DNA of 64,000 nucleotides, taken from NCBI GenBank assembly GCA_021817905.1, contig JAKAFM010000001.1:3985-67984 (forward strand). The letters are read 5' to 3'. This document shows positions 12,231 through 28,816 of the stretch, piece by piece (position 1 is the stretch's first letter; each line of letters opens with the position of its first letter). Made by a program: the position numbers and the translations under genes. This DNA comes from a bacterium (GTDB lineage: Bacteria > Patescibacteriota > Microgenomatia > UBA12405). The notes under the pieces were generated by a model that worked only from the letters and a program-made list of their open reading frames with translations, ran no database searches and had not been told where the DNA came from.

Positions 12231-12730
12231 TTCAGCTGTACTGAAGTCACGATCTTTCCAAAATCTTTCTCTAATTCAGGATCATTACTATTAGCAGTTA
12301 AAGCTACCGACACTACTTGGTCTCCAAACATTTGCCAACAAACCCGCTCCCAAACATCTTTTTTTTGATAACATCGCCAATCATCAATTGCCAAGGCTTG
12401 ATACAAATCATTTTTTAGACTTCTCATTTTTATATCTGAAAGCTCATCTAAATTTCCACTATAATCTTTAGCCATTACTACCAGCTGTTGGGACAAACCA
12501 ACCGTTCCCACTAACAATACCTTTTTTTCTTCACTGCTTAAAACAGTCAAAGAGGGTGGATACTTAAAATGAAATGTTTTCCCTTGATAATCAATCCAGG
12601 CCGTTGATTGGCTTGCCAGCGGCTCTATCTTTGGGGTAGTTACTGTTCCCACACTAGGTTGTCGCATCCACCACCAAAAAACAGCTATCAATATCGCCAC
12701 TGTTCCCGATAACAATAACCATTTTCTCAT
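12227..12730 (-). CDS. Hypothetical membrane-anchored protein
   Basis: 167 aa with N-terminal TM (LLLSGTVAILIAVFWWW). It is the last gene of the minus-strand surface-protein operon. Confidence 0.5.
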   Translation of the reverse strand: MRKWLLLSGTVAILIAVFWWWMRQPSVGTVTTPKIEPLASQSTAWIDYQGKTFHFKYPPSLTVLSSEEKKVLLVGTVGLSQQLVVMAKDYSGNLDELSDIKMRSLKNDLYQALAIDDWRCYQKKDVWERVCWQMFGDQVVSVALTANSNDPELEKDFGKIVTSVQLN

Positions 12731-13410
12731 TATTTCCCGGCAATAATCAAAATATCAGCATCGGGCTGCGTCTCGCCATCAGGCAACGTTTGCACCTTAC
12801 CATTTACTAATTGAGCCATATCACTAGCTAACCCGGCATAATTACCCGTTAAATCTACTACTACTGTCTGGCCATAATCGCTTCGAGCCGCATTGCCGTG
12901 ACCAGTTACCTGAATACCGTCAATACCGCTTATTTTCTGCTCAACAGTTTTAGCTAAATTGGCCACTGTTGTCCCGTTTAACACCACTACTCTAACTTTT
13001 GCGGCCACTCCCGTTGGTGATGGTTTAACTGGCACCGCTGATTGATCATTAATCGTCAATGGCACCATATCGATAACTTTATTAGTTGACGGTCGATACA
13101 AAATTGCCCGTCTAATCTTGGTATAAATAAGCACTTTATCACCATTTTGTGATTTTTGAAAAAACGGCTGATCCTTTAATTTATCTTTATCCACGATAGT
13201 CGCCAAAGTAGGGGATTCGTCGGTGGGCAAATCCATATACTGACTAATTTTAGTCACATAACTTAAAACCTCGGCTGCCGCCACTTTTTGTGGATTTTGA
13301 GATGCTTTTTTATATTGCCGATAAAAATAATATGCTGTTCCGCTTAAACCCAAAATCAAGAGCACAATACCTGCGCCCGCTATCCACTTAACAATTGGTT
13401 GTTTCATCAT
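12730..13410 (-). CDS. LytR_C domain (LytR cell-envelope-related attenuator C-terminal) protein
   Basis: N-terminal TM, then C-terminal VRVVVLNGTTVANLAKTV...GNAAR..YGQTVVV, a LytR_C pattern. Start chosen at MMKQPIVKW (13410) rather than the ORF-track start at 13521. Confidence 0.6.
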   Translation of the reverse strand: MMKQPIVKWIAGAGIVLLILGLSGTAYYFYRQYKKASQNPQKVAAAEVLSYVTKISQYMDLPTDESPTLATIVDKDKLKDQPFFQKSQNGDKVLIYTKIRRAILYRPSTNKVIDMVPLTINDQSAVPVKPSPTGVAAKVRVVVLNGTTVANLAKTVEQKISGIDGIQVTGHGNAARSDYGQTVVVDLTGNYAGLASDMAQLVNGKVQTLPDGETQPDADILIIAGK

Positions 13411-13427
13411 ATTCAATTTTACCGCAA

Positions 13428-16370
13428 TTAAAAAGTGAATGGTTGCCTTACTCCATTTGAAAACCATTCCCCATGCCGCATAATTTGATCTAATGTTGGC
13501 CCGGAAGAAAAAATCCAACAAGTACCATTATTCCCCATATTAGTTGATCCTACCCCAATGGTCGCATTAGCCGATCCGACCGCACACCCGGAATCCTTAA
13601 TACCTATATAAGAAATGGTTGACTGGGCATTCAAGAAATTTACCAACCACTGCGAACCGGGAGTATCGGATTGCACCAATGCCAACGTCCCGGCGACCCC
13701 GGTCACCGTCATTGTCCCTCCGATAGTAAACACTGGTGTTGATCCCACTCCCGCTTCAAACTGAACTACTTTACCCGGATTGGTAATACTTAAACTATTG
13801 AAAGCCATCGATGTTGTTCCCACCGACACTACTGTCGTCGCCCCTCCGCTTAAATTAACCAATCCTGTATTAGCATTAAAAGTACCATTATTAGTTAACG
13901 CCCCCGATACGTCAAGCGTATTTGCCCCCGCTGTATAGGTTCCTCCAATAGTTACATTATTGGTAAAAACATTTCCTGCCGGTTGATACAAATTCCCCGG
14001 AAACACATATAACTTATACTGACTAAATTGGTTGCGAACATCGGTCGTCAAGGTATTTCCCACATCAACATTAAAAAAAACATCACTTGTTCCTGTTCCC
14101 GCCACCGAATTATCGTAATTTGCCAAATCAGTATTACCAATCGATACTGTCCCGCCACTATCACCAATTGTTAAAGTTTGCTCGTATAAATTAAGCCCAG
14201 ATATATTCCCTGAACCTGAGTATTCTGTCACTGTATTCGCCCGAGCCGTTACCCCAACTCCAGAAACAAAAGCAGTTAGCACATCGTTAGGTACCGGCTG
14301 ATCAACACTACTAAAAACATAAGTTCCCCCGGAGATAGTGGTTGTCGTCGATCGCAAACTGCCGTTAACGGCATAACGTATTGTTTCCCCTGTCGCACAA
14401 TTTGTGGTCATATCATATTTTTTACACGACCCAGAAATTGAGATCGGCGCATTTTTAATTTCTACCGCAATCCCACCAATATTTGAAGTTGTACTTTGGG
14501 TCATATTGACCGCCGTTGCCCCATATGCCGTCTTCCATTCAACTTTCATACTCGTTGTCGGATTATTAAAAGCTACCCCCGTACCCCCACTATATCCAGC
14601 TCCAGCCGTTAACGAATTGGCATTATTAACCGCATTAGCAAATCCACCCGCCGTGATATTAGAACTTGCCGACAAGGCACTTAAATTAATTGTCAACCCG
14701 GTGGCCGCTGTTGAACTATCACTCGCCCCCACCCCATACTGCACAACCGCCCCCGACCCGTCAGTTCCCGACGTATCCACCCCGCTAAATTCGACGATAA
14801 TATAACCCAGACCGGTTGCACTCTGCCCCCAGGTAATTGTGTTAGTTCCTGTACTCAATCCCGACGTCTTTAGTGCCCGGAATAAGGTAATATTACTTAA
14901 TTTTGTTGACGTAGTATTAAATTGCTGATTGGCAACTTTTACCCAATTAAGGCCTGTGGTTGTTGTTACTGTCGGCGTACTGGTCGCCGTTCCATAGGTT
15001 TGTATGGTCCACATTAAATAAAGCCGGTTTGCCACCGGCGTAAAACTATTAGTAACGGTTGACGTCGCCGCTGTTGTCGTTGCTCCTTGAGTAATCTGGG
15101 CTACCGTTACATAGTCAACGGCAATCTGCCACTCCCGATTTTCACTAAAGACAGTCTGGTTATTACTCACAAATTCTAGCGGTCCAACCGTATAAAATTG
15201 CGGACTTATCGATGGAGTTTGAAAGGTATATCCTAAAATAAGATCATCTCCATTTTTGGCATTCACTTCCCAAATAACTTTTTTTATGCCCAACCCTGGT
15301 TGCTCTTCAATCCGATCATAATTTTGGACTCCACCTTCACTCTGTTGATCAATCACAAAACTCAACGGCACTGTTTCCGAAACTTCACCCTTAAAATCAG
15401 CACCCATCGTTACAGACATGGTCATCGGATAAGTATAAGGTGGAAATACCCGGGTAATACTATCGCGATCAATACTCGCCCAATTGAATTCTGCTACCTC
15501 GAACTGATTAGTAATCGTATATGATCCATTTTTTGTCACCGCACTCATCGTCATTTGATACGTTCCACTGTCCGGCCCCACCATATAAGTAGCTTCATAA
15601 TCCGGTTGTAGCGTGTAATCGTGGCCCGAACACACTGAATTTATTTTTACCAGTCCATTTGCAGTCGACAAAGTATCTATCTTACCGGTTACCGTATTCT
15701 TAATATCCAAAGTTACTGCTGCATCACAAACCGTCTTACCCTGTTCATCCAAAACCGCCATCGAAATCAAACTATTTTCCAAGGGTCGATAAACCGCCTT
15801 GTTAGTATTAAGGGCCAACACTCCCCACAGAAAATCCTGTTGACTTATCACCCCAAAACTGTCCGACATTGTCACCCGATATTTTCCCGGCATAAACTGA
15901 TGCGGAGGATCAACTTTTACTATCGTCACATCATCAATTTGTTCATTTTCAACATTGGCAGTTATTAACTCACCCTGATTATTTCTAACCTCAGTTTTTA
16001 TGGTATTGACGGTAGTGTTTAACAGTTCCGCCTCAACCTTCTCGCCATTATCATACATACTTTTCATTCCCTGACGAAGCTTTGCCGGAACCCTTAATTG
16101 CGCCGAACCTCCGGTTGGAATTGCCAGTCCACTTCCTGGCGGTAAGGTGGGTATAAGCAACAAAGGTTGTCCACTTTGGCTAGCTACATTAATTGGTGGG
16201 GGAGTCAGATCTATAGGCGCCAAAGTGGACACCACCGATGTCCCAACCTGGCCACTCCCGGTAGCCAAAAAGGTTGTCGGACTGAGTTCTTGAGCATAGG
16301 CCACATTTCCCGACACTATTGTCACTACCATCCAACAACCAACCAATAATAGTAAATTTTTCCATCTCAT
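13428..16370 (-). CDS. Large secreted surface protein with a beta-helix-like, T/G/N-rich C-terminal half
   Basis: 980 aa. Sec signal peptide MRWKNLLLLVGCWMVVTIVSGNVAYA. Long runs of short G/T/N-rich beta-strand repeats. Ends ...NGTCWIFSS. Confidence 0.65.
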   Translation of the reverse strand: MRWKNLLLLVGCWMVVTIVSGNVAYAQELSPTTFLATGSGQVGTSVVSTLAPIDLTPPPINVASQSGQPLLLIPTLPPGSGLAIPTGGSAQLRVPAKLRQGMKSMYDNGEKVEAELLNTTVNTIKTEVRNNQGELITANVENEQIDDVTIVKVDPPHQFMPGKYRVTMSDSFGVISQQDFLWGVLALNTNKAVYRPLENSLISMAVLDEQGKTVCDAAVTLDIKNTVTGKIDTLSTANGLVKINSVCSGHDYTLQPDYEATYMVGPDSGTYQMTMSAVTKNGSYTITNQFEVAEFNWASIDRDSITRVFPPYTYPMTMSVTMGADFKGEVSETVPLSFVIDQQSEGGVQNYDRIEEQPGLGIKKVIWEVNAKNGDDLILGYTFQTPSISPQFYTVGPLEFVSNNQTVFSENREWQIAVDYVTVAQITQGATTTAATSTVTNSFTPVANRLYLMWTIQTYGTATSTPTVTTTTGLNWVKVANQQFNTTSTKLSNITLFRALKTSGLSTGTNTITWGQSATGLGYIIVEFSGVDTSGTDGSGAVVQYGVGASDSSTAATGLTINLSALSASSNITAGGFANAVNNANSLTAGAGYSGGTGVAFNNPTTSMKVEWKTAYGATAVNMTQSTTSNIGGIAVEIKNAPISISGSCKKYDMTTNCATGETIRYAVNGSLRSTTTTISGGTYVFSSVDQPVPNDVLTAFVSGVGVTARANTVTEYSGSGNISGLNLYEQTLTIGDSGGTVSIGNTDLANYDNSVAGTGTSDVFFNVDVGNTLTTDVRNQFSQYKLYVFPGNLYQPAGNVFTNNVTIGGTYTAGANTLDVSGALTNNGTFNANTGLVNLSGGATTVVSVGTTSMAFNSLSITNPGKVVQFEAGVGSTPVFTIGGTMTVTGVAGTLALVQSDTPGSQWLVNFLNAQSTISYIGIKDSGCAVGSANATIGVGSTNMGNNGTCWIFSSGPTLDQIMRHGEWFSNGVRQPFTF

Positions 16371-18697
16371 CGGGCGTTATATCTCAAAATAATATCACCG
16401 GCCCGGGTCAAGGCACTCGATGTATTCTTTGCCGCCAGTTTTATTCTAATAATTGCGGTCTGCCCGGCCGCATTCCACTGTGGTGACGAACCACTGCTCA
16501 GTGTCGTACTGGTACATCCCGAACTCGACCATGCTGTTGAGGCTGTTGAACCTATTGAACAGACACTGGTCCCCGGAGTATCGGTATCATTATTCACCCG
16601 ATAAGAAATATAGTTATCACCTGTAGTCCCAAGGCCAGTCTGATAATTGAATTGCAGTGCGCACGTTGAACCCGGGCAACTTCCTGTCTGCCAGCTACTA
16701 AAATCACCCGGCAAAGTTACTCTGACCAACACCGAATAATCCTGAAGGGCCGCATTAGTCGATGACCACTGATAATAATTTTGCCACCCGCTGGTGCCAG
16801 TATTCAAATTATTATCCGAAGTCAAAGATCCATCATTAGATGTCGAACCGTCTTTCGACAATGATGCCCCCGAATACTCTGGCGAAAGTACTATTTGAGA
16901 AGTATAGGTTGACGAACCAGCGCAGGCCCCCCAAGTACCGTTGGCATAACACCGAAAAGCATTCGAGGCAGTACTATAATACATCGCTCCATTTGTTCCC
17001 GCCGGATCACTACTACCATTATCCATCACAAACAAAATTGGTGAAGTTTTTCCCACTCCAGTCCCGATAATCACCTCGCCGGTTGGCCCGACATCAAAAA
17101 TAACATTGCCGGCATTAAAGGTTCGTAACGTTAAATCTGAACTTCCATAGATCGGTCCCGATTCGACAGACAAAGGTGCTCCCGATCGTATAGTTGACGA
17201 AGTTGGGTTGGTAAAATACATATCATAAGCAATACCTACATCACCAGCCGAAGTTAAGTTAAACGGATTATTTACCGTTGATTGCTGTGGCGATACCGAA
17301 GCGATATCACTCCCATTATTATTAAGATCCAAAATATTACCGTTACCATCACTTTCGACATACATTCCCCCAGCATTTGGATCGGTATTACCATTATAAA
17401 TACCTGCTACATAACCTGTACTTCCAGTACCATAAATATCAAATTGGTGACCCAGGCCGGAAGTTCCTATCCCCACATTACCACCACTACCAACATAAAA
17501 TACTTGGGTATTTCCTAATCCCAATAATGAAAAATAAAAAGATGAAACCCCTACATTGGTATTTTGGGTTAAAGTCCCACCTAAACCCACTGCCCCCGAT
17601 ATTAATTGCAAACCATTGGTAGCAGTCGCTGACCCCCCTGGTGGCAACGTTCCTTGAACCAAAACACCACTGCTATTGATATACAATACCGTGTTTCCCA
17701 CCCCTACCGGAATTCCTGTCATCGTTACCGACCCTCCAATTGAAAGGTTGGTAGAAATATTAACATTACCAACAACATCCAATTTATACCCCGGATTTGA
17801 TGTGCCAATTCCCACCCAACCACTAGTCCCAATAAACAACGCCTGACTATTACCCAACCCCAAAAAATTAACCGTAAATGATGAAGTACCAATTGAGGTA
17901 TTTTGTACCAAGGTTCCACCCAAACCAACCGAACCAGCAATCAAAGATAACCCATTTGTTGTTGATGCCGAGCCACTGGGAGGTAAAGTTCCTTGAGTAA
18001 TACTTCCATTACTGCTGATATATAAAACAGTCGATCCTGTTCCCAAGGGAATATTAGTCAAACTTAATGACCCGCCAATTGCCAAGTTACCCGTAACCCC
18101 TACGCCTCCCGTGATTACTAAGCCCGCAAAAAGAGGCGAATTAGTCGTCTGTAAACTCTGATTCAAACTAACCCCAACTCCCGAAGTCACAAAAGAATCT
18201 CCAAAACTTATCGTTTTGCCATTAGGAATGGTTAAGGTTCCGGTCGTATTAGTTACCGTCAATCCCGACACTTTCAAAGCATTCATCGCATAGGGCACAG
18301 CCGTAAATTGTAACCGAGGGCTCATATCACCATCACCATTAAAATTTACCGATAAATAAAGGCTATCAGTATTAAAATCAATTGACGATGGAAAAGTAGT
18401 GTAAGTTCCTAAAGCCACATTAAAAGTCCCGCTGGTTACCGGCACCTGTGTTGTCCCCGAATTCCAAGTTTCTGTCCATAACGATGACCCTGCCGACAAA
18501 GCATTCCAAATTGTAAAAGTAAAATTATAACTTCCATCCGCCACATTGGTTCCATCAGTTGACCCTATCCCTTTATTAACCACCTTACCCTGAAAATTAA
18601 TTTTTTGATTTATTCCTGTCGCTGCCAACACAGAGCCTGACCCTGCCAATCCCGCCACTAAAATCACCACAAACACAAGCACTTTTAAGTACTTCAT
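16367..18697 (-). CDS. Secreted protein with tandem ~100-aa repeats and a tail-fibre-like GIGT(S/T)xP motif
   Basis: 776 aa. Signal peptide. Two tandem repeats (G[SN]TVLYI[SN]S.G...QGTLPP.GSA..TNGL.L..G.VGLGGTL.QNT..G.SSF....LGLGN.Q......G.VGIGTS). VGIGTSNPGYKLDV resembles phage tail-fibre and chaperone-of-endosialidase-neighbour repeats. The start overlaps the stop of the upstream gene (ATGA). Confidence 0.65.
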   Translation of the reverse strand: MKYLKVLVFVVILVAGLAGSGSVLAATGINQKINFQGKVVNKGIGSTDGTNVADGSYNFTFTIWNALSAGSSLWTETWNSGTTQVPVTSGTFNVALGTYTTFPSSIDFNTDSLYLSVNFNGDGDMSPRLQFTAVPYAMNALKVSGLTVTNTTGTLTIPNGKTISFGDSFVTSGVGVSLNQSLQTTNSPLFAGLVITGGVGVTGNLAIGGSLSLTNIPLGTGSTVLYISSNGSITQGTLPPSGSASTTNGLSLIAGSVGLGGTLVQNTSIGTSSFTVNFLGLGNSQALFIGTSGWVGIGTSNPGYKLDVVGNVNISTNLSIGGSVTMTGIPVGVGNTVLYINSSGVLVQGTLPPGGSATATNGLQLISGAVGLGGTLTQNTNVGVSSFYFSLLGLGNTQVFYVGSGGNVGIGTSGLGHQFDIYGTGSTGYVAGIYNGNTDPNAGGMYVESDGNGNILDLNNNGSDIASVSPQQSTVNNPFNLTSAGDVGIAYDMYFTNPTSSTIRSGAPLSVESGPIYGSSDLTLRTFNAGNVIFDVGPTGEVIIGTGVGKTSPILFVMDNGSSDPAGTNGAMYYSTASNAFRCYANGTWGACAGSSTYTSQIVLSPEYSGASLSKDGSTSNDGSLTSDNNLNTGTSGWQNYYQWSSTNAALQDYSVLVRVTLPGDFSSWQTGSCPGSTCALQFNYQTGLGTTGDNYISYRVNNDTDTPGTSVCSIGSTASTAWSSSGCTSTTLSSGSSPQWNAAGQTAIIRIKLAAKNTSSALTRAGDIILRYNAR

Positions 18698-18825
18698 TAT
18701 ATATTTTTCGATAGGATAGGTAAATATATCCTAAAAAACCAGGAAAAATTAAATCCTAGTATCTAATTGTAGTGGTCAGGGGGAAAGGGGTAAAGACATC
18801 ACTATAGATCAAATTATCATTGCAT

Positions 18826-19770
18826 TTAATTCGGTAACTTAGGGTTTTTTTTAATAAATTTTTTAGAAATATAAATAGTACTCCCAAATAATCCAATTAT
18901 GAAGGCCAACAACAACCAAAACAAAGGAGCTCCGGCAGAAAAATAATGATCTTTCACTAATGTCGTATCAGCCACCCCATCGTAACGATAATTTACATTT
19001 ATTGTGTAGTTACCCGGAAAAAAGAGACGAGACAGAGGATAAAGTTGAGTCCGATAAACTCTAAAACTTTCCGGCAAAATAATTGCGGAATCGCTATTAA
19101 TTAACCCCTTGCCCACCACGCGCCCCAAAACATCAACCACAGTAACTGTCCCTCGAGGAACTAAATGAACATTACCACTATTTTGAAAACGTAATAAAAC
19201 AGTCGACGGCAGCCGAAACCAAGCAGCATCGTGTTCAATTTTTCTTAAATCAAGTTGTTTAATCTCTGCGCCACCCTGTTTGTCAACAAAAAATAAACTG
19301 GCATATGCTTGATTTACATTCACAACACTCCCAGGCTTAACATCACTTACCTGACTAAAAAGCACCGCTCCATAATGTCCGCCTGAAGTCAATGAATCTT
19401 TATTAAGAACCGTCACTTTAACTTTCTCCTCACTTCCCGCCGCCACCTCGAGCCTATCCTTTTCCAATTGCAACCATGACGCCAGCGAATATTTATATTT
19501 CTGCATTTCCTGGCCATTCACTCCCAAAAATTGAACCCCTCCAGAATCATTTAGGCTCCCAAAATCAACCACTGATAATTGAAAAGTTTGACTAAAAGTA
19601 TTATGGTTCGCTACCGTCAAAATTTCACTGTGAGAATTCTCTGCTGGTAACAATGTTACCGACACAAATGGAGGAGATATTGAAAATCCACCACTGACAG
19701 CAAAACACCTATCCGGCCTCAATAAAATAATCATCACTAACAATAAAAATTGCTTTAAAAACGTATGCAT
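18826..19770 (-). CDS. Secreted protein with a C-terminal TM anchor and basic tail (DUF916/DUF3324-like architecture)
   Basis: 314 aa. N-terminal signal peptide. C-terminal LFWLLLAFIIGLFGSTIYI followed by KKFIKKNPK. Paralogous to 19771-20814. Confidence 0.55.
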   Translation of the reverse strand: MHTFLKQFLLLVMIILLRPDRCFAVSGGFSISPPFVSVTLLPAENSHSEILTVANHNTFSQTFQLSVVDFGSLNDSGGVQFLGVNGQEMQKYKYSLASWLQLEKDRLEVAAGSEEKVKVTVLNKDSLTSGGHYGAVLFSQVSDVKPGSVVNVNQAYASLFFVDKQGGAEIKQLDLRKIEHDAAWFRLPSTVLLRFQNSGNVHLVPRGTVTVVDVLGRVVGKGLINSDSAIILPESFRVYRTQLYPLSRLFFPGNYTINVNYRYDGVADTTLVKDHYFSAGAPLFWLLLAFIIGLFGSTIYISKKFIKKNPKLPN

Positions 19771-20814
19771 CTACTTTCTTTTAATCATCCGATATAACAA
19801 ATAGGTCATTTGGCCCACTCCAAATAATAACAAAATAACTACCACTCCAACCCCTATAAGTATTCTCCACGGGACCACCCAAAAACTTAAACTCGCCTCA
19901 ATGGGAACATCCCGCTTACCATCATCATAAGCTAACAACATTAATGCCGTATATTTTCCAAATCGTAATTTCTTAATTTGCGAAAAATCCCAATTAAGTT
20001 GTTGGATGGGATTTCCTTTGCGATCAGTCTCTACCACCTTATTGTCAATTTTATCCGTATAGACAGGAAAACCATCACTCCATGCACTTGTGAATATCCT
20101 CGATGAATTTGGTAAAACATTTCCCTTAAGATCATTAATATCCAAAATAGCCACATCTTTTTTGTCCCCTTGGCTAATAAAAATGTTTCCTTTTGGAGCC
20201 ACATGAACATTTCCCTGGTTAAGCAACTTAATAGTAAAATTTACCGGTAAAAATTCAAATACTTTCTTCGGTACCGAAAATTCAGTAACCTCAATTTTTC
20301 GCACTGCATTTGGAACCCTTACTTCCAACAAGACCAAAGACGCCACTGCCCCCAAAATTTTAGTTGACCGCTCTCCTGCAACTGTCGGATCATTAAATCG
20401 GGAAAAAGTAACTGCGTAATAATAGCCAAATGCTGCGTTTGGAGGCACAGAAATATTCATCGTAATCGTTTTCCACTCATTCGCCACCATCGTAAAGTCG
20501 TTATCTGAAAAATGTACCCAATCAAAGTAATCATCCCCCGGGGCTCGATCTAATAATCTTGGGTTACCCTCATCTCCATAGGCCGAAAATTTCATTAAAC
20601 TAACATGAATTTTTTCTGGTAACAAACCGGCATTCTTAATTTTCAACTGCGCCGAAACCGTAGACCCTGGTTCAGTCACTAAATTAATGGGAAGAGGGGA
20701 CACCACCAAATTTAAACCGCCCACTGTTTGCGCCAATACCAGATTACTTTTTCCTCCAATAAGGAATAAAATTCCTAAAATCAAACCACTCCAAAACCTA
20801 AATCTAATTTTCAT
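19771..20814 (-). CDS. Secreted protein with a C-terminal TM anchor and basic tail (paralogue of 18826-19770)
   Basis: 347 aa. Signal peptide. C-terminal ILIGVGVVVILLLFGVG followed by YRMIKRK. Shares the central motif P(K/R)G...ILP.SSR with the neighbouring gene. Confidence 0.55.
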   Translation of the reverse strand: MKIRFRFWSGLILGILFLIGGKSNLVLAQTVGGLNLVVSPLPINLVTEPGSTVSAQLKIKNAGLLPEKIHVSLMKFSAYGDEGNPRLLDRAPGDDYFDWVHFSDNDFTMVANEWKTITMNISVPPNAAFGYYYAVTFSRFNDPTVAGERSTKILGAVASLVLLEVRVPNAVRKIEVTEFSVPKKVFEFLPVNFTIKLLNQGNVHVAPKGNIFISQGDKKDVAILDINDLKGNVLPNSSRIFTSAWSDGFPVYTDKIDNKVVETDRKGNPIQQLNWDFSQIKKLRFGKYTALMLLAYDDGKRDVPIEASLSFWVVPWRILIGVGVVVILLLFGVGQMTYLLYRMIKRK

Positions 20815-20822
20815 TCCAAAAC

Positions 20823-21833
20823 TTAAAAATTACCGGCACCAACTATGGTCCAGGTATCTGTATAGTCACTGCCAGCAGCCTTGGTTGCAATCATCGCCAC
20901 ATGAGCCTTAAGCCAAACAGTATCATTGTTAGTTTTTCCTGTTCGGAACACAAATGGTTGCAAAGAAGTACTAAATGCTCCTCCGGATGTAGTCCCGTTC
21001 CCAGCATAAGATGTCGCTGCCGTCAGCGACCCAGACCCTGTGCCCGCAGTTACTCCAACATCCAAAATATAGCAATCAGATCCGGAGGTACAGGTTACCG
21101 TCGATCCGCCCACTACTCCTGTTGTCCCGATACTTTCCCCAGTCGTCGCCGACGATAATGCAGCATTAGCGCTTTTTATCCACCCAGTCCACCCCTTGGC
21201 CGCATTAGTCGACACCGAAACTCCAACTCCGATCGTTGAGACGACAGATCCGGAACTTAAATTACCTGTAAAGGCATCCGTTGTTCCCGTTATTGAAAAA
21301 TTAAAAGTTGAAGGTACGTTTGCCGTAATTACCACTTGATCGCTTGACAAATATTGAACCGCCACCGTTGTTTGATCAATCAAAGCATCACCCGAAGTTG
21401 TTGTTTTCACGATATCAAACGCTGAACCTGGTGAAGCCGGTGTTGATATACCAATATTTATATTAAAGCCATAAGTTTGGCCAACTGACAACGCCGTTAC
21501 TCCCGTTATATCAACTTCCGAAGTTCCTGTCCGGGCTGCTACCAAAGTCCCCGGCAAAGTCGAGACCCCCGTATCCAAATTAGTAACCGACACACTAACT
21601 CCAGCCCCAACCACGGCTGATCCAAAAATGAGCTTTACTTTAGCAACTGTTGCCCCCGTCACCGGAATAAAGGTAACGTAAACATTCGACGGAGTGTTTG
21701 CCTGCATCCGATCATAACGAACCGTTGCCCGGGTAAGCTGTGCCGCCAACACCGACTGACTCGACATTGAAAAAAGGATTGCCGCCAACACCAACACCGA
21801 CAACAAAGAAACGACCGATCTTAATATTTTCAT
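20823..21833 (-). CDS. Secreted T/S/G-rich surface protein with a conserved C-terminal tail (possibly WxL-like)
   Basis: 336 aa. Signal peptide. The C-terminus ...SDYTDTWTIVGAGNF is homologous to the C-terminus of 21887-22939. Confidence 0.5.
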   Translation of the reverse strand: MKILRSVVSLLSVLVLAAILFSMSSQSVLAAQLTRATVRYDRMQANTPSNVYVTFIPVTGATVAKVKLIFGSAVVGAGVSVSVTNLDTGVSTLPGTLVAARTGTSEVDITGVTALSVGQTYGFNINIGISTPASPGSAFDIVKTTTSGDALIDQTTVAVQYLSSDQVVITANVPSTFNFSITGTTDAFTGNLSSGSVVSTIGVGVSVSTNAAKGWTGWIKSANAALSSATTGESIGTTGVVGGSTVTCTSGSDCYILDVGVTAGTGSGSLTAATSYAGNGTTSGGAFSTSLQPFVFRTGKTNNDTVWLKAHVAMIATKAAGSDYTDTWTIVGAGNF

Positions 21834-21886
21834 GGTTATGATTTAAATATGTCTTGTTTACGATAATTTGTCAAGCTGATCATTAT

Positions 21887-22939
21887 TTAAAAATTGGCGC
21901 TGGCAATTACCGTCATCGATTCACTATAGTCACTAGCCTCGGGGGTACTCGTTGACGACTTCGCTTTAACTAAAAAATGAGCTCTGCCCGAAGTTACTGG
22001 AGTAGTCGCAGTAAAAATCTGATTTACTAAGGTGTTTACCGAACCAATAACATTTCCACTCCCATTATAGGGAGACAATATTAAAAATTGCCCAGCAGTT
22101 TGTGTCGCTCCTACCCCTTGTACTCCATAACCTTCCGCAATCCCACCACTCGATAAATCCCCATTTACCGTTGCAATTGTATAACCTGCAGTCACACTTT
22201 TTAAACCGCCATTTTGGCCGTAAATAAACACCCCACCTCCAGACGCCGCATTCGTATCCAAAGATACCCAAACATAAACCGGGCTATTAACCACATTACT
22301 TGGATAAAGATCCCCTAAACTAATCGCATAAGGTGGCAAAGTGTGGGTATCGGTAGCAGAAACATCGATTTCAAATGTTAGCGTCGGCGCTACCGTGGCT
22401 CCCGTCGCCACTGGTCCCCAATTGGTTTCACTATATTTTCCTTGCCAAGCCTTTGCTTTAAAGCTATAAGTAGTTGAACCTAGCAAACCAGAGACAACGC
22501 TGCCCGTTGATCCTCCCCAGGCATTATAATTTTGATAATCAGTAAATGCCAATGAAGACCCAATAGTACCGTCAGATTTTATATATTGTGTCGTTACAAA
22601 ATTATCACTACTAATGGCAATTGCATACAATGCATCACCCGGATTACCTTGAGTATCGACCACAAAATGCAATTTATTATAATAGTTGCCCGGATTATCA
22701 ACCGTAATCTTGGGAACATTGGCCAACTCTGCAAATACCAATCCAGGACCAATCCCATAACTGGAACCAACAATCGGATTCCCTCCGACTTCACCAGCCA
22801 CCCCGTTTATAGAATAATTACTTGATCCCACCTGACCTCCTCCCGCACTCCCAAGACTGAAACCTTCGAGTTTGTAATTAGTACTCGCCGGCAATACAAA
22901 AAAGAGAAATAACCACCAATAGTTTCGATAGTTCTTCAT
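21887..22939 (-). CDS. Secreted surface protein, paralogue of 20823-21833 (possibly WxL-like)
   Basis: 350 aa. Signal peptide. C-terminus ...SDYSESMTVIASANF aligns with SDYTDTWTIVGAGNF. Confidence 0.5.
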   Translation of the reverse strand: MKNYRNYWWLFLFFVLPASTNYKLEGFSLGSAGGGQVGSSNYSINGVAGEVGGNPIVGSSYGIGPGLVFAELANVPKITVDNPGNYYNKLHFVVDTQGNPGDALYAIAISSDNFVTTQYIKSDGTIGSSLAFTDYQNYNAWGGSTGSVVSGLLGSTTYSFKAKAWQGKYSETNWGPVATGATVAPTLTFEIDVSATDTHTLPPYAISLGDLYPSNVVNSPVYVWVSLDTNAASGGGVFIYGQNGGLKSVTAGYTIATVNGDLSSGGIAEGYGVQGVGATQTAGQFLILSPYNGSGNVIGSVNTLVNQIFTATTPVTSGRAHFLVKAKSSTSTPEASDYSESMTVIASANF

Positions 22940-25584
22940 AATTTAAAACGAATCCATAAATACCAAAAAACAAAAGAAATCAAAAGAGGAACAGCTGCAA
23001 TCGTTGTGCTTACCACCGAAAGCATTACCCCAAACAAAATAGTAAAAAACAAAAACGCCCAAGCTCCAAATCTCCCAAAATTGATATGTCCACTATCATA
23101 GGAGCCGTCAAAATCACTTTTTACTAACCTAAAATGTAACGCCGCTCTCAATAAACTTTCGCGCTTAAAATCCATAAACGGGGACGGATCATACCCTCGT
23201 GCCGTCACTGAAATTCGAACCTGATCTAACCTAGCTGGCACTTTCATAGAAAAATTTCCCAACAATCCAGTATAACTTCTTTCAAGAACCTGATTTTTAT
23301 TGCCATCGACCAAAAAAACACCTGCCCCAGAAATCGGGTAACCACTCAAATCGTTTATCACCACCCCATTAATAGTATTAACCTCCTTTACTCTTATCAA
23401 CAGACGATACAAATATAAAGGTAACAACCACCAAGCAATATGGTTGATTAGTGACCATGTTAACATTCCCAAAAAAAGTAACATTCCTGTCATAAGAACC
23501 CAAAGTAATTGGATAAATCGACCAGAATGAAAAAGTTCAATTGCTGAATTCAGAACAAAGGTATAACTGTCACTTATGGTTGTCGCATAAAAACCCACCA
23601 CCGCGCCTATAGTTATTGGCAATCGTTCCAAACTAACCTGGGGATAACCATTATGAGGAGATACTACAAATTCCATGGTTTTACTTTTATAACCCATCGC
23701 CGTTACCACCATTTTATATTGACCTTCTATTAAGATAGTATTAACCGTTCCATTACTTTCCGAATAAGTAGGATTAGTTAATAAACCCGTTCCACGCCAT
23801 AATTGATAAATCCGTGCTGGCGTAAAATAATAAAAAGTCACCTCCGCCCGCTCGATTCCTTTTCCGTTTTGGTCAACAACCTTAACGGGCAAAATGACCG
23901 TTAATTCCCCAACCTTTTGCTCAACAATATTCCCATAAAAATCATAAATTCGCAAATACATTTCATAAACACCGGGAAGAGGAGGAGTTTTTAAGTACGC
24001 CTGATAACCATTACTCCCAGAATTAATAAGATCAGCCACTACCGAATTGGGATCATTCCCAGCTGCACTCACAATTCCCAAAACATGCTTATTCCGTAAC
24101 CAAACTTGCGCCAGTTTAATGATATACGTCGGCGGAAGATTAAATTGGACCATATATGGCTGCGCTACCGGCAAAATTATCTGTGCCAAAGGTTTAGTTT
24201 GACCAGTATTGCGGTTGTCATACAATATTTGATCTGAACTCACCACTGTTGCCAATAATTGGCTGAATACCGACGGTAAAAGGGGAGTTGATGGCGTTAT
24301 AAAGGTGAACACATCAGAAGTCGTGGTATCGGCAGTTACCGTAAAGAAATAGGCAGTTGATGGCAATAATCCTTCAATTTTTATTTTATTTTCCGTGCCA
24401 ATATCTAGTACTATTAATGACTTACTTAACAATGTCGGCGACAACCCATACCGTATTTGCAATTTCTGCGGTACAGCCGACACCTCCACCCCTACCGTCG
24501 CCGCAGTTGCATCCAGACCGGAAATCACCACATTGGTAATAGTTACTGGCACTGGCACCGGCACTGGCGTCGCTGTTGGCACCCCGGTTAATTCAACCGT
24601 CGGCACAATCGTTGCAATTGGTGTTGGAGTTGTCATGGATGCATACTGATAACTCTCAGTAATCTGATTACTCGAAACTGTCACTACTTTCGATGCATTC
24701 AACTCTCCCGAAACAGTAAAATGGACAGTTGATGACCCAGCATAGTTACTATTAGTCTTTAAACTAAAGCTAACCTTTTGGTCGGTCGTTTGGGCTGGAA
24801 AAGAAGTTATGGTCCAGGTAATCGTCCGATTAACTAAATCGATTACCGGATGTGTCCCATTATAAGCATCGCTGGCGCTGTTCACCACGTAATCAGCCAC
24901 ATCAACCGTCAGTCCTCCGCCACCCTCAACCGAACCCCGTCCCCAGGTTGCCGTCAGTACCAAGGGATACGTCGGACTATGCAAATTGGCTCCATAGGTT
25001 AAAGTGTAGCCAATTTGCTGATTTTGACTCAAAACTCCAACACTGTTGTCCGTCAATCCAATTTGAAAATCTGACGCCAAAGCCGACACTTTTCCAGTAA
25101 CTACCACAGTATCTTTTGCCGCAATCGGAATACCCACGTATTGTTGACCATCAATAGTCGACCCAACCAAAGTCATCACCTGCCATTGATATATTGAGCT
25201 ATCACCAGCGGACGGATTCAGCCCAACTCCACCAGTCACATAAAAACCATAAGTAACTCCAGCCGTTAAATCACCACTCGAAAAAGTTATCTGTTGACCG
25301 TCAACACCACTAAAACCTATTCCCGGCCAAGCAGTCACTCCGGATGGTAATTGTGAGGTACTAATAGTCACCCCGGAATTCACACTCCAGGCGCTATTTA
25401 CCACCATTCTGAATCCTGTTTCCGTCACGTTGGATAATGTCGAAACTTCAACCAAAACTGGTAAAGGATTTTCACCGCTTGCCATTCGGCTTAACCGAAT
25501 TGTTGATGATTCCAACCCAGCCGCTGCCACCTGTTTTGTCGACAGAAAAAATACCATCACGATCAAGAACCACTTTTTCATCAT
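22936..25584 (-). CDS. Large membrane-anchored adhesin-like protein with CarbopepD_reg/transthyretin-like domains
   Basis: 882 aa. Signal peptide. PVPVPVPV linker and an FN3-like region. Two CarboxypepD_reg-like beta-sandwich segments (VKVVDQNGKGIERAEVTFYY..GQYKMVVTAMGYKSKT; GVFLVDGNKNQVLERSYTGLLGNFSMKV..). Several C-terminal TM helices. Confidence 0.65.
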   Translation of the reverse strand: MMKKWFLIVMVFFLSTKQVAAAGLESSTIRLSRMASGENPLPVLVEVSTLSNVTETGFRMVVNSAWSVNSGVTISTSQLPSGVTAWPGIGFSGVDGQQITFSSGDLTAGVTYGFYVTGGVGLNPSAGDSSIYQWQVMTLVGSTIDGQQYVGIPIAAKDTVVVTGKVSALASDFQIGLTDNSVGVLSQNQQIGYTLTYGANLHSPTYPLVLTATWGRGSVEGGGGLTVDVADYVVNSASDAYNGTHPVIDLVNRTITWTITSFPAQTTDQKVSFSLKTNSNYAGSSTVHFTVSGELNASKVVTVSSNQITESYQYASMTTPTPIATIVPTVELTGVPTATPVPVPVPVTITNVVISGLDATAATVGVEVSAVPQKLQIRYGLSPTLLSKSLIVLDIGTENKIKIEGLLPSTAYFFTVTADTTTSDVFTFITPSTPLLPSVFSQLLATVVSSDQILYDNRNTGQTKPLAQIILPVAQPYMVQFNLPPTYIIKLAQVWLRNKHVLGIVSAAGNDPNSVVADLINSGSNGYQAYLKTPPLPGVYEMYLRIYDFYGNIVEQKVGELTVILPVKVVDQNGKGIERAEVTFYYFTPARIYQLWRGTGLLTNPTYSESNGTVNTILIEGQYKMVVTAMGYKSKTMEFVVSPHNGYPQVSLERLPITIGAVVGFYATTISDSYTFVLNSAIELFHSGRFIQLLWVLMTGMLLFLGMLTWSLINHIAWWLLPLYLYRLLIRVKEVNTINGVVINDLSGYPISGAGVFLVDGNKNQVLERSYTGLLGNFSMKVPARLDQVRISVTARGYDPSPFMDFKRESLLRAALHFRLVKSDFDGSYDSGHINFGRFGAWAFLFFTILFGVMLSVVSTTIAAVPLLISFVFWYLWIRFKL

Positions 25585-26275: not shown

Positions 26276-26575
26276 ATGGTTTCAACTCAACCTTCGTTGT
26301 TATCAGAAACACTTTCTAAATATCAGGAAGTATTAGCCAAAAGAAAAAAGTATGTCAAAAAAGAATATCAAGCCTACGGACTTCAACTAGCCGAAGAACT
26401 ACTTGACTGGAAGAACAAATCACTCTACATGCGTCTTGCTAAAACCACTGATATAAAATTACTCGAAAAAGCCAGACTTTTTGTCAAAGATCAACAACGG
26501 GGAACAATCAGATCAAAAGCTAAGCTTTTTATGTGGAAATTAAAAGAGCTCAAATCATTCCCTCCCAAAACTTGA
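26276..26575 (+). CDS. Hypothetical small basic protein
   Basis: ORF of 99 aa with no recognisable motif. Confidence 0.35.
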   Translation: MVSTQPSLLSETLSKYQEVLAKRKKYVKKEYQAYGLQLAEELLDWKNKSLYMRLAKTTDIKLLEKARLFVKDQQRGTIRSKAKLFMWKLKELKSFPPKT

Positions 26576-26607
26576 CTTATGCAACTCAGTTGCATATAAT
26601 TGCCGAA

Positions 26608-27033
26608 ATGGAGTATTTTAATCCCGACAAGATCATGAAATCGTTTCATCTCAGATCTACCAAGGTCCGGCACGCACTCATTTGTATTTTATATCAGAAC
26701 AATCAACCACTTTCTGTGGCCACTCTAACCGATCATCTAAAAACGCAGTTTAAAATAACCACCAACAAAACCACACTCTATCGACAACTTGATCTTTTGG
26801 AAAATAAAAAAATAATTAGTATTTACGAAGTTGAAGGGATAAAACATTTCCAATTTAACCATAGTCATTCACATCAATATTTGTTTTGTCATAGTTGTCA
26901 TCAGTTTATTCCACTAAAATCAGAACCGATTATTACCCTCAAAGACATCCAAAATATCGAAAAAAAACATCATTTTACTATTAGTCATCATTCCACCCTC
27001 TATTTTGGTCAATGCCATAGCTGCAAACCATAA
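26608..27033 (+). CDS. Fur family metal-responsive transcriptional regulator
   Basis: The winged helix (LRSTKVRHALICILY..PLSVATL) plus the HSHSHQYLFCHSCHQ...CHSC metal-site motifs are typical of the Fur/Zur/PerR family. An internal start was chosen instead of the ORF-track start at 26533. Confidence 0.7.
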   Translation: MEYFNPDKIMKSFHLRSTKVRHALICILYQNNQPLSVATLTDHLKTQFKITTNKTTLYRQLDLLENKKIISIYEVEGIKHFQFNHSHSHQYLFCHSCHQFIPLKSEPIITLKDIQNIEKKHHFTISHHSTLYFGQCHSCKP

Positions 27034-27060
27034 TATGTGAGTTAATATAATAAGTCACCT

Positions 27061-28113: not shown

Positions 28114-28816
28114 TCCCAAAGTTATTCTAGAACTTCGAGATGTTGTTAAAACCTATACCACTGGTAATACTAGTTTTAACGCTCTAAACAAAGTCAACCT
28201 TTCTATAAACCAGGGAGAATTTGTCTCCATTACCGGTCCTTCAGGCTCAGGAAAGTCAACCCTAATGCACATTGTTGGATTACTTGATATCCCAACCTCC
28301 GGCGAAGTCCTGCTCAATAATCTCGATATCGCTCACTTTGACGAAAAAAAATTGGCCCAAATTAGAAACGTCACCCTCGGGTTCGTCTTTCAGCAATTTA
28401 ACCTCCTCCCCAAAACCTCAGCCCTCGAAAACGTCATGTTACCACTCCTATATTCCGACGTCCCCCAACATCTCCGCCGGGATTTAGGTGTTGAAATGTT
28501 AACCAAAGTCGGATTGGCCGACAAATTAGTCAATACTCCCTCACAACTCTCCGGTGGTCAACAACAACGGGTAGCTATTGCCCGAGCCCTTATCAACAAT
28601 CCCAAAATTATCCTAGCTGATGAACCGACAGGAAATCTCGACTCTAAATCAGGTAGCGATATTATGGCTTTTTTCCATCAACTTAACCAAAAGGAAGGTC
28701 GGACTATTGTTTTTGTGACTCATGATCGTGATCTTGCCAACGAAGCCGACCGTATCATTATTATCAAAGATGGTCAAATACAAATTGAACAACACCCCCG
28801 CCATGTTGAAACCTAG
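28085..28816 (+). CDS. ABC transporter ATP-binding protein (MacB/LolD type)
   Basis: Walker A GPSGSGKST, ABC signature LSGGQQQRVAIARAL, Walker B ILADEPTGNLD. Confidence 0.9.
   Translation: MTKLSSKKDNPKVILELRDVVKTYTTGNTSFNALNKVNLSINQGEFVSITGPSGSGKSTLMHIVGLLDIPTSGEVLLNNLDIAHFDEKKLAQIRNVTLGFVFQQFNLLPKTSALENVMLPLLYSDVPQHLRRDLGVEMLTKVGLADKLVNTPSQLSGGQQQRVAIARALINNPKIILADEPTGNLDSKSGSDIMAFFHQLNQKEGRTIVFVTHDRDLANEADRIIIIKDGQIQIEQHPRHVET

What the first reader, a model, noticed from the sequence alone, without database searches (positions are those of the whole stretch)
18826..22939. Four-gene module resembling a Gram-positive csc/WxL-type cell-surface complex
Two paralogous proteins share a signal peptide, a ~300-aa beta-rich region, a C-terminal TM and a basic tail. 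This matches the architecture reported for DUF916/DUF3324 'cell surface' proteins. They sit next to two paralogous secreted T/S/G-rich proteins whose C-termini are clearly homologous (SDYTDTWTIVGAGNF / SDYSESMTVIASANF) and resemble the distal YxxxTW(T/S)L motif of WxL domains. In Firmicutes such clusters (CscA/B/C/D) form non-covalently attached surface complexes. Finding this module embedded among giant adhesin-like genes and near pilB/pilT would point to a surface-display system in this lineage that is not yet characterised.
Basis: inference. Interest (0 to 1): 0.6.

Follow-up and report, generated by a model that had tools for sequence, protein, structure and literature searches.

The report
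WxLIP-anchored surface operon of Patescibacteria
Two of the four genes are true but distant relatives of the membrane-anchored "WxL-interacting proteins" of Gram-positive bacteria, while their two secreted neighbours carry an undescribed C-terminal domain instead of a WxL domain, and the whole block is a conserved operon across the ultrasmall Patescibacteria that probably displays proteins on the cell surface.

Summary
In detail: four co-directional genes lie at 18826-22939, forming two paralogous pairs.

Proteins A (314 aa) and B (347 aa) are full-length remote homologues of Firmicutes WxLIP (DUF916-DUF3324-TM). hhalign gives 99.1 % and 98.1 % probability against eight genuine WxLIPs. The best solved-structure matches are the E. 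faecium WxLIP crystal structures.

Proteins C and D are not detectable WxL proteins. Pfam, a PDB profile search, hhalign (probability 1 % or less, while a small-versus-large WxL positive control scores 98 %) and two fold searches all fail, although a real WxL chain (9i25_A) is in the library. C and D instead share a 160-aa beta-rich domain that always ends at the last residue (...DYTDTxTVVGAGNF). This domain has no Pfam, NCBIfam or PDB sequence match. It forms 785 clusters at 50 % identity and also ends a subtilase and TIG/NHL proteins encoded elsewhere.

The order D-C-B-A-F (F has a conserved N-terminus and a hypervariable body) is kept in nearly all 80 Patescibacteria loci examined. Relatives of A occur in 314 GTDB species.

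The most likely function, which is inferred, is a non-covalent surface-display or adhesion complex. I rate it a new variant of a known kind.

The parts
18826..19770 (-). Protein A, 314 aa. WxLIP-family protein with a signal peptide, two Ig-like ectodomains (DUF916-like and DUF3324-like), a C-terminal TM helix and a basic tail.
   Evidence: PF06030 E=3.3e-5, 24.3 bits against a cutoff of 27.3. 18 of 37 family members hit PF06030. hhalign against 8 genuine WxLIPs gives 99.1 %, E=4e-18, over 305 columns. The top three Foldseek hits are 9i1y_A, 9i1y_B and 9i25_C. The AF2 model has pLDDT 84.
19486..19575 (-). Residues 66-95 of A: the most conserved motif of the family (SVVDFGSLDESGGVAFLG...), lying in or next to the only low-confidence loop of the model. 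Candidate strand-donating hairpin.
   Evidence: Invariant D69, G71 and G78, and nearly invariant F70, L73, E75, G77, V79, F81 and G83. pLDDT is below 50 for residues 75-85 and 87-94. The motif aligns to the matching region of WxLIP. The role is inferred from the WxLIP hairpin described in PMC10599100.
18847..18933 (-). C-terminal transmembrane helix of A (residues 280-308), followed by a Lys-rich tail.
   Evidence: AF2 helix 280-308. Hydrophobic segment 276-303. It aligns with the WxLIP TM helix in hhalign.
19771..20814 (-). Protein B, 347 aa. Second WxLIP-family paralogue with the same architecture.
   Evidence: hhalign against genuine WxLIP gives 98.1 %, E=6e-13, over 312 columns, and against family A E=2.9e-39. 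Hydrophobic segments at 9-29 and 307-344, with tail RMIKRK.
20823..21833 (-). Protein C, 336 aa. Secreted two-domain beta-sandwich protein.
   Evidence: AF2 pLDDT 94, with domains at 30-162 and 177-336. 122 homologues, all Patescibacteria and none with a Pfam domain. Fold matches are generic Ig-like adhesin and pilin modules.
20826..21308 (-). C-terminal ~160-aa domain of C (residues 176-336), undescribed. Motifs are TNAxxGW and a terminal DYTDTxTVVGAGNF-COOH.
   Evidence: HMM E=2.5e-44. 785 clusters at 50 % identity, and the domain always ends at the last residue. Not WxL by any test used.
21312..21746 (-). N-terminal Ig-like domain of C (residues 30-174), shared with protein E.
21887..22939 (-). 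Protein D, 350 aa. Short leader, three Gly-rich S-x-N-Y repeats, an fn3-like middle region, and the same C-terminal domain as C. It is the best conserved of the four.
   Evidence: 596 homologues, with the best 120 at 47-69 % identity apart from the exact self-match, and no Pfam domain. Family consensus. The fn3-like description of the middle region is my reading of the sequence, not a Pfam hit.
21890..22387 (-). C-terminal domain of D (residues 185-350), homologous to that of C.
   Evidence: HMM E=1e-45. hhalign of the C and D C-terminal families gives 99.6 %, E=9e-24.
22936..25584 (-). Protein E, 882 aa. Signal peptide, a C-type N-terminal domain, Ig and CarboxypepD_reg modules, and C-terminal membrane segments. 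A lineage-specific upstream member whose stop overlaps the start of D.
   Evidence: The same gene sits in the same position in Shapirobacteria loci L001 and L002.
16367..18697 (-). Protein F, 776 aa. Secreted protein that always follows A, with a conserved N-terminal ~170 aa and a hypervariable body.
   Evidence: Present after A in almost all loci. Only residues 1-173 are conserved, in up to 77 F-type ORFs from the loci. No Pfam, PDB or PHROG match.
13428..16370 (-). Protein G, 980 aa. Second large secreted protein, overlapping the end of F by 4 bases.
   Evidence: Relatives appear in only a few loci.
12730..13467 (-). Protein H, 245 aa by the gene callers' start. Single-TM protein with a LytR_C domain, recurring downstream of F.
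   Evidence: PF13399 E=6e-5. An H-type ORF lies downstream of F in about 27 loci. The start codon follows.
12227..12730 (-). Protein I, 167 aa. Single-TM protein. Its family sits either between A and F or immediately upstream of D in other lineages.
   Evidence: The upstream-of-D 'Y' family HMM hits this ORF at E=2.4e-11. I-type ORFs lie between A and F in L007, L008, L010, L014, L020 and L044.

Best explanation
The block is the core of a conserved Patescibacteria operon (D, C, B, A, F, here flanked by E, G, H and I) that builds a non-covalently assembled cell-surface complex. A and B are type-I membrane proteins of the WxLIP (DUF916-DUF3324-TM) family. Each has a cleaved leader, two Ig-like ectodomains outside the cell, one C-terminal membrane helix and a short basic cytoplasmic tail. 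C and D are secreted proteins whose common C-terminal ~160-aa beta-sandwich domain takes the place that the WxL domain occupies in Firmicutes. It is always the last domain, it is encoded next to WxLIP genes, and it is also appended to unrelated passenger domains (a subtilase, TIG/NHL propellers, Ig arrays) encoded elsewhere in the genome. I propose that A and B capture this domain at the membrane surface by beta-strand augmentation. The conserved, intrinsically unstructured hairpin of their first domain (DFGSLDESGGVAFLG) would supply the strand, as predicted for WxLIP-WxL. C, D and dispersed cargo would thereby be held on the cell, and the downstream hypervariable protein F would be presented as the outward-facing, fast-evolving adhesin. 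Shown: the anatomy, the homology of A and B to WxLIP, the C/D domain sharing, the absence of a detectable WxL domain, the operon conservation and the C-terminal-tag behaviour of the domain. Inferred: physical binding between A/B and the C/D domain, the role of the hairpin, and the role of F.
For: WxLIP membership of A and B: PF06030 is near threshold for A, and 18 of 37 relatives hit it. The only PDB sequence matches are EfmWxLIP1. hhalign gives 99.1 % (E=4e-18) and 98.1 % (E=6e-13) over about 305 columns, covering both domains and the TM helix. The top three Foldseek hits are the E. faecium WxLIP structures 9i1y and 9i25_C. Partner domain: C and D share it (E=9e-24). It forms 785 clusters, always ends at the last residue, and also ends a subtilase, TIG/NHL and Big_5 proteins, which are encoded away from the operon. 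Linkage: the order D-C-B-A-F holds in nearly all 80 loci, and 314 GTDB species carry a relative of A. The genes are tightly packed or overlapping. Hairpin: it is the most conserved motif of the family and coincides with the only segments of pLDDT below 50. The matching WxLIP loop is predicted to order on WxL binding (PMC10599100), and a WxLIP-WxL complex has been solved (9i25).
Against: The C model is confident (pLDDT about 97) as a monomer, so no missing strand is evident. Copy numbers of B (1-4) and C (1-3) vary independently between loci, which argues against a strict 1:1 pairing. The Firmicutes PGBD motif NQIDKxxxYFDLK falls in an 11-residue deletion in family A, so binding properties may differ. 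The cluster of the cultivated Saccharibacterium Southlakia that was labelled DUF916/WxL by others was dispensable in co-culture Tn-seq, although it has a different layout and was not compared directly with this operon.
Confidence: 0.55

Rival explanations
1. This is a genuine, very divergent WxL/Csc cluster. The C-terminal domain of C and D would be a WxL domain that has drifted beyond sequence recognition, and the system would work exactly like the Firmicutes one, including peptidoglycan binding by the WxL domain.
Confidence: 0.2
2. This is a chaperone-assisted fibre. A and B would act like PapD-type chaperones tethered to the membrane, and C and D would be pilin-like subunits polymerised by donor-strand exchange into a surface filament tipped by F.
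For: After WxLIP, the best fold matches of A are chaperone-usher chaperones: CfaA, CsuC, FimC and Caf1M, with E from 1e-9 to 1e-7. The ECOD assignment of the Southlakia DUF916-like protein is to Caf1M. The hits for C include the pilins CsuA/B, SafDAA, PapG and Gram-positive shaft pilins. D is the most conserved component, as expected of a major structural subunit.
Against: No usher-like or sortase-like component and no LPXTG motif is present. The chaperone-like proteins carry permanent membrane anchors. The same C-terminal domain ends enzymes such as a subtilase, which fits an anchor tag better than a pilin. Monomer models are complete and confident. TM-scores to the chaperones are low, 0.26-0.32 normalised to the query.
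Confidence: 0.15
3. The four proteins are independent surface adhesins or S-layer-associated proteins that are merely co-transcribed, with no specific complex between them.
For: All folds are generic Ig-like sandwiches. No interaction has been measured.
Against: The strict gene order is conserved across classes of Patescibacteria that share only 35-50 % identity. A and B are homologous to a family whose defining property is binding a co-encoded partner (PDB 9i25).
Confidence: 0.08

Closest known systems
WxL-interacting protein (WxLIP; CscA; DUF916/PF06030 + DUF3324/PF11797 + TM helix) of Enterococcus, Listeria and Lactobacillus. Structures 9i1y and 9i25.
   Same: A and B have the same full-length architecture: signal peptide, two Ig-like domains, a C-terminal TM helix and a basic tail. 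They are also similar in length. Homology is detectable at profile and fold level, including a conserved loop at the position of the WxL-binding hairpin.
   Different: Only about 16-17 % identity. The window protein is below the Pfam gathering score, and PF11797 is never hit. The NQIDKxxxYFDLK motif is deleted. There are two (up to five) paralogues per operon instead of the usual one. The partner is not a recognisable WxL protein. The lineage is Patescibacteria rather than Bacilli.
WxL domain proteins (PF13731; CscB/CscC; small and large WxL; 9i25_A)
   Same: Both are strictly C-terminal, beta-rich modules of about 160-190 aa on secreted proteins encoded beside WxLIP genes. Both also end large multidomain surface proteins.
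   Different: No sequence, profile or fold-search similarity was found. The two W-x-L motifs and the D-x-R-G-T-x-A-G turn are absent. The domain ends in GAGNF-COOH rather than W-x-L-x-x-A-P. No convincing domain-only 'small' form was found, since the ~200-aa hits are truncated fragments.
Csc cell-surface complex gene clusters of Lactobacillus plantarum (Siezen et al. 2006, PMC1534035, seen as title and abstract only). The CscA-D component list comes from my own knowledge and from PMC9772566 and PMC10599100.
   Same: A multi-gene operon of exclusively secreted or membrane-anchored proteins, including a DUF916-type anchor and large variable proteins.
   Different: No CscD-type LPXTG protein and no WxL proteins. 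There is no link to sugar-utilisation genes in the window. Extra conserved members are present: the F N-terminal domain, the LytR_C protein H and the single-TM protein I.
Southlakia epibionticum SEML1_0625-0628 (Wang et al. 2023, Cell, Tables S1 and S2)
   Same: A Patescibacteria cluster containing a ~316-aa DUF916-like protein next to giant repeat proteins, found by structure-based annotation.
   Different: Its layout is giant, then a 188-aa WxL-like protein, then DUF916, then a 220-aa LPXTG-like protein. It has no D- or C-type genes. It was not discussed in the paper's main text, and all four genes were non-essential in Tn-seq.
Chaperone-usher pilus chaperones and subunits (PapD/FimC/CsuC with CsuA/B)
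   Same: A two-Ig-domain protein that may complete a partner's beta-sandwich with a donated strand. The fold matches rank second only to WxLIP.
   Different: There is no usher and no outer membrane. The chaperone-like protein is membrane-anchored, and similarity is at the level of the general fold only.

Membership tests
WxLIP (DUF916-DUF3324-TMH; PMC10599100) | N-terminal signal peptide | tested here: met
   Hydrophobic leaders at A 7-26 and B 9-29. AF2 helix at residues 2-16 of A. No dedicated signal-peptide predictor was available.
WxLIP (DUF916-DUF3324-TMH; PMC10599100) | First domain is PGBD / DUF916 (PF06030) | tested here: met
   Window protein A scores E=3.3e-5 and 24.3 bits, just below the 27.3-bit cutoff. 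18 of 37 relatives hit PF06030, the best at 1.2e-6, and four relatives carry a precomputed PF06030 hit. hhalign against genuine WxLIP gives 99.1 %.
WxLIP (DUF916-DUF3324-TMH; PMC10599100) | Second domain is HBD / DUF3324 (PF11797), directly after the first | tested here: inconclusive
   No PF11797 hit in 37 members. However, the hhalign alignment runs through the second domain (273-305 columns), and Foldseek aligns 272 columns to 9i1y_A.
WxLIP (DUF916-DUF3324-TMH; PMC10599100) | Single C-terminal transmembrane helix | tested here: met
   AF2 helix 280-308 in A. Hydrophobic segments at A 276-303 and B 307-344. The helix aligns to the WxLIP TM helix.
WxLIP (DUF916-DUF3324-TMH; PMC10599100) | Conserved N-terminal motif NQIDKxxxYFDLK | tested here: not met
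   In the hhalign alignment, family A has an 11-residue gap exactly opposite the WxLIP consensus 'nQvd..v.YFDL'.
WxLIP (DUF916-DUF3324-TMH; PMC10599100) | Encoded in a cluster with at least two WxL proteins | tested here: not met
   No ORF of the window or of 84 related loci matches genuine WxL HMMs; the best E-values are 0.12-1.
WxLIP (DUF916-DUF3324-TMH; PMC10599100) | Binds its co-encoded partner through an ordered hairpin, and binds peptidoglycan | not testable with these tools
   Only indirect evidence: a conserved loop of low pLDDT.
WxL domain (PF13731) | Match to the family profile | tested here: not met
   No hit for C, D or 35 relatives at E up to 0.1. hhalign probability is 0.05-1 % against three genuine WxL alignments, while the small-versus-large WxL control gives 98 %.
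WxL domain (PF13731) | Two conserved W-x-L motifs, the first preceded by D-x-R-G-T-x-A-G | tested here: not met
   The family consensus is TNAxxGWxxW(V/I)KS and DYTDT(L/W/I)TVVGAGNF. There is no conserved Leu two residues after the first Trp, the second Trp is not conserved, and there is no D-x-R (motif definition).
WxL domain (PF13731) | Domain located at the extreme C-terminus of a secreted protein | tested here: met
   Every one of the 150 listed relatives ends with the domain.
WxL domain (PF13731) | Same fold as a solved WxL domain (9i25_A) | tested here: not met
Csc cluster (CscA-D) | CscD-type small LPXTG protein | tested here: not met
   There is no LPxTG motif in A-E or G-I. F contains only 'LPPSG', in mid-protein.
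Chaperone-usher pilus system | PapD-like two-domain chaperone | tested here: inconclusive
   Fold matches have E from 1e-9 to 1e-7, but the TM-score normalised to the query is only about 0.26-0.32, and these hits rank below WxLIP.
Chaperone-usher pilus system | Usher pore protein | tested here: not met
   No usher family appears among the Pfam hits of any module protein.

The most novel reading that the evidence does not exclude
The C-terminal 'GAGNF' domain is a previously unrecognised, phylum-wide surface-sorting tag of Patescibacteria, and D-C-B-A is its dedicated receptor and scaffold. This would be a functional counterpart of sortase/LPXTG, SLH or the T9SS C-terminal domain for a lineage that lives attached to other cells. 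The operon would then be the platform on which hypervariable adhesins (F) and tagged enzymes (for example the subtilase) are presented to the host bacterium.
Probability: 0.3. Interest if true: 0.75.

Novelty: new variant of a known kind. Interest (0 to 1): 0.55.

Why it matters
Patescibacteria make up a large share of bacterial diversity, and all cultivated members live attached to host cells. How they build their surface is largely unknown beyond type IV pili. This operon is one of the more widely conserved surface-protein gene blocks in the group: relatives of A occur in 314 GTDB species, and the gene order is the same across classes.

It links these organisms to an experimentally tractable Gram-positive system, WxLIP/WxL, for which crystal structures now exist. 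It also identifies an unannotated C-terminal domain family (785 clusters at 50 % identity) that behaves like an anchoring tag on enzymes and adhesins.

This gives concrete, testable hypotheses for how epibionts display host-binding proteins. It also allows surface-exposed cargo to be predicted from sequence alone.

Tried and rejected
**Searches that gave nothing**
- NCBIfam and PHROGs scans of the module proteins gave no useful hit.
- The AFDB50 fold library was unavailable, so the comparison that labelled the Southlakia protein 'WxL' could not be repeated for C.
- Single genuine WxL sequences did not retrieve a solved WxL chain. A 13-sequence profile was needed.
- The F N-terminal domain gave only noise against the PDB.
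- Promoter and terminator scans were at chance level: 38 against 33 expected, and 12 against 14. Operon structure therefore rests on gene packing and synteny alone.
Its lineage is inferred from relatives (Shapirobacteria, Woesebacteria and Gottesmanbacteria) and from three TPA MAG assemblies.

**Ideas considered and dropped**
- That small, domain-only forms of the C/D domain exist, parallel to small WxL. The ~200-aa hits lack a leader and start inside the preceding domain, so they are truncated predictions.
- That F, the I/Y family, or the N-terminal domains of C and D might be the hidden WxL-like component. All gave hhalign probabilities below 10 %, over short stretches only.
- That the 89.9 % hhalign value between the C N-terminal domain and the C/D C-terminal domain is meaningful. 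It comes from about 25 overlapping residues in my trimming.
- That the operon occurs in Bdellovibrionales. Those record titles are probably mislabels.

**Literature**
- Searches found no paper linking Patescibacteria or Saccharibacteria with WxL or DUF916, and no paper for PDB 9i25.

Full report
**1. The observation**

The ORF list shows four adjacent minus-strand genes exactly at the reported limits:
- A: 18826-19770, 314 aa
- B: 19771-20814, 347 aa
- C: 20823-21833, 336 aa
- D: 21887-22939, 350 aa

A and B have an N-terminal hydrophobic leader, a beta-rich body, a C-terminal hydrophobic helix and a Lys/Arg tail. They are paralogues: BLASTP E=1e-8 at 20 % identity, and E=2.9e-39 between family profiles.

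C and D are rich in Thr, Ser and Gly (39 % and 34 %) and end in the quoted peptides. Their last ~160 residues are homologous: BLASTP E=2e-4, and hhalign 99.6 % with E=9e-24 over 160 columns. The stated context is right as well, with a PilB-type ATPase at 82-1821 and giant secreted proteins on both sides.

**2. A and B are WxLIP-family proteins**

- Pfam gives A a near-threshold hit to PF06030 (WxLIP_PGBD, formerly DUF916): E=3.3e-5, 24.3 bits against a cutoff of 27.3.
- Of 37 diverse relatives, 18 hit the same family.
- A profile of the family finds only EfmWxLIP1 among all PDB sequences, and weakly (E=0.33).
- An AlphaFold2 model (pLDDT 84) shows a leader, two beta-sandwich domains and a terminal helix.
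- Its three best Foldseek matches in the PDB are the E. faecium WxLIP crystal structures 9i1y_A, 9i1y_B and 9i25_C (E=1.5e-10 to 8e-10). PapD-type pilus chaperones follow.

To test this properly I fetched eight annotated Firmicutes WxL clusters from plasmids and compared profiles. Family A against genuine WxLIP gives 99.1 % probability, E=4e-18, over 305 columns. Family B gives 98.1 %, E=6e-13. The alignment runs through both domains and the membrane helix.

Two differences stand out. PF11797 never hits. The Firmicutes motif NQIDKxxxYFDLK also falls in an 11-residue deletion in family A.

**3. C and D are not recognisable WxL proteins**

- Neither protein, nor any of 35 relatives, hits PF13731.
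- The family profile hits nothing in the PDB at E up to 1. A 13-sequence profile of genuine WxL domains finds the solved chain 9i25_A ('WxL domain surface protein') at 1.4e-9.
- hhalign of the C family, the D family or their C-terminal domains against small, large or combined genuine WxL alignments gives probabilities of 0.05-1 %. The negative controls give the same values. The positive control, small against large WxL, gives 98 % with E=1.5e-13.
- Genuine WxL HMMs find nothing in the window or in 84 related loci.
The family consensus is DYTDTLTVVGAGNF.

A parallel order of motifs can be seen by eye, so a very remote relationship cannot be excluded. No test supports it.

**4. What the C/D domain is**

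An exhaustive HMM search with the domain alone finds 785 clusters at 50 % identity, 411 of them below 1e-10. In all 150 listed hits the domain ends at the last residue.

Most carriers are ~350-aa two-domain proteins like C and D. The domain also terminates larger proteins:
- a subtilase with CHB_HEX_C modules (P0282)
- TIG plus NHL propeller proteins (P0266, P0298)
- a Big_5 protein (P0272)

P0282 and P0266 are encoded alone among housekeeping genes. The ~200-aa hits are N-terminally truncated fragments, not a small form. The domain therefore behaves like a C-terminal anchoring or docking tag.

The N-terminal Ig-like domain of C recurs in the upstream 882-aa protein E.

**5. The operon**

A scan of GTDB species representatives found relatives of A in 314 species. 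Their titles name Saccharibacteria, Moraniibacteriota, Shapirobacteria and Paceibacteria. About 20 titles name 'Bdellovibrionales', but the nearest relatives of those loci are Moraniibacteriota.

In the 80 loci fetched, the order is nearly universal: D, then C (1-3 copies), then B (1-4 copies), then A, then F. In F only the first ~170 residues are conserved. The rest varies from about 200 to 3,000 aa.

A LytR_C protein (H) and a single-TM protein (I) recur in the neighbourhood. In Saccharibacteria the I family sits directly upstream of D.

In the window the nine genes E-D-C-B-A-F-G-H-I (12227-25584) are co-directional and mostly overlapping or abutting. D is the most conserved member: its best 120 of 596 hits are 47-69 % identical, apart from the exact self-match.

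**6. Mechanism**

Shown:
- two membrane-anchored WxLIP homologues
- two secreted proteins with a shared terminal domain
- strict linkage of these genes
- use of the domain as a terminal tag on unrelated cargo

From the literature: in Firmicutes, WxLIP is proposed to bind and stabilise WxL by ordering an unstructured hairpin into a strand that completes the WxL sandwich (PMC10599100). A WxLIP-WxL complex has been solved (9i25).

Inferred:
- A and B dock the C/D-type domain in the same way.
- The most conserved motif of family A, DFGSLDESGGVAFLG, supplies the strand. It coincides with the only low-confidence loop of the model and aligns with the corresponding WxLIP region.
- F is the exposed, fast-evolving adhesin.

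I put this at about 0.55. The rivals are a WxL domain diverged beyond recognition (0.2), a chaperone-assisted fibre (0.15) and unrelated co-transcribed adhesins (below 0.1).

**7. Comparison with what is known, and novelty**

No paper in the searched library links Patescibacteria or Saccharibacteria with WxL or DUF916.

The supplementary tables of Wang et al. 2023 (PMC10633639) list a cluster in Southlakia epibionticum with these members:
- SEML1_0626, whose best matches are 'DUF916 domain-containing protein'
- SEML1_0627, 188 aa, whose best match is 'WxL domain-containing protein'
- a giant repeat protein and a small LPXTG-like protein

All four were non-essential in Tn-seq. The presence of DUF916-like proteins in this phylum is therefore already visible in databases, and a more classical WxL-type cluster may exist there. 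I could not compare sequences.

Three things appear to be undescribed:
- the phylum-wide D-C-B-A-F operon
- the replacement of WxL by a different, unannotated C-terminal domain family
- the use of that domain on dispersed cargo

I classify the finding as a new variant of a known kind.

**8. Limits**

No complex was modelled and no coordinates could be inspected. AFDB50 was unavailable. The fold searches used the whole two-domain model, and their lists are truncated. Promoter and terminator scans were uninformative. The organism is known only as a Patescibacteria MAG, related to Shapirobacteria, Woesebacteria and Gottesmanbacteria.

Noticed in passing
window 22936-25584 (-): The 882-aa protein E starts with a domain (residues 6-167) paralogous to the N-terminal domain of C. 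It ends in several membrane segments interrupted by a CarboxypepD_reg-like module. An equivalent gene was seen only in the Shapirobacteria loci L001 and L002.
   Followed up: partly
window 16367-18697 (-); loci L005-L084: F always follows A, but only its first ~170 residues are conserved. The remainder ranges from about 200 to 3,000 aa and differs between lineages. The conserved N-terminal domain has no Pfam, PDB or PHROG match.
   Followed up: partly
L095 (GCA_027424525.1) versus L098-L101: One assembly lists a 381-aa gene downstream of an identical protein A, where the other strains have the 776-aa F. This may be a strain variant, a frameshift or an assembly artefact.
   Followed up: no
window 22780-22939 (-), N-terminus of D: D has a very short hydrophobic leader followed by a strongly conserved 'PASTNYQL' and three Gly-rich S-x-N-Y-x-(L/I) repeats. 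Conservation right at the leader's end hints at a specific processing site or a strand-like N-terminal extension.
   Followed up: no
L008, L014, L020, L022, L028 and about 15 further loci: Records titled 'uncultured Bdellovibrionales bacterium' carry the operon. Their protein A is closest (44-84 % identity) to Moraniibacteriota MAGs, so the titles look like taxonomy-mapping errors. One D homologue (P0470) is labelled Undibacterium and is likewise suspect.
   Followed up: partly
Saccharibacteria loci such as L006, L013, L019 and L023, upstream of D; window 47080-47532 (+): In Saccharibacteria, a ~310-330-aa protein (N-terminal TM, Ig-like body, C-terminal TM) and a ~200-240-aa single-TM protein precede D. 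The first family hits the window ORF at 47080-47532 (E=1.3e-8), outside the module.
   Followed up: no
window 26533-30026 (+): Immediately beyond the module, on the other strand, lie a FUR-family regulator and a MacB/HlyD-type ABC exporter set (HlyD_D23, then an intervening 243-aa ORF at 28085-28816 that other assemblies' gene calls mark as ABC_tran, then MacB_PCD + FtsX). The same neighbours are present in all strains of this organism.
   Followed up: no
whole window: GC skew on the plus strand is negative in every 2-kb bin (-0.09 to -0.42), irrespective of the coding strand of the local genes.
   Followed up: no
Southlakia epibionticum SEML1_0625-0628 (PMC10633639, Tables S1 and S2): A cultivated Saccharibacterium has a cluster with structure-based DUF916 and WxL-like labels that the paper's main text does not discuss. 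All four genes were non-essential in Tn-seq, and disruption of 0625 gave a growth advantage.
   Followed up: partly
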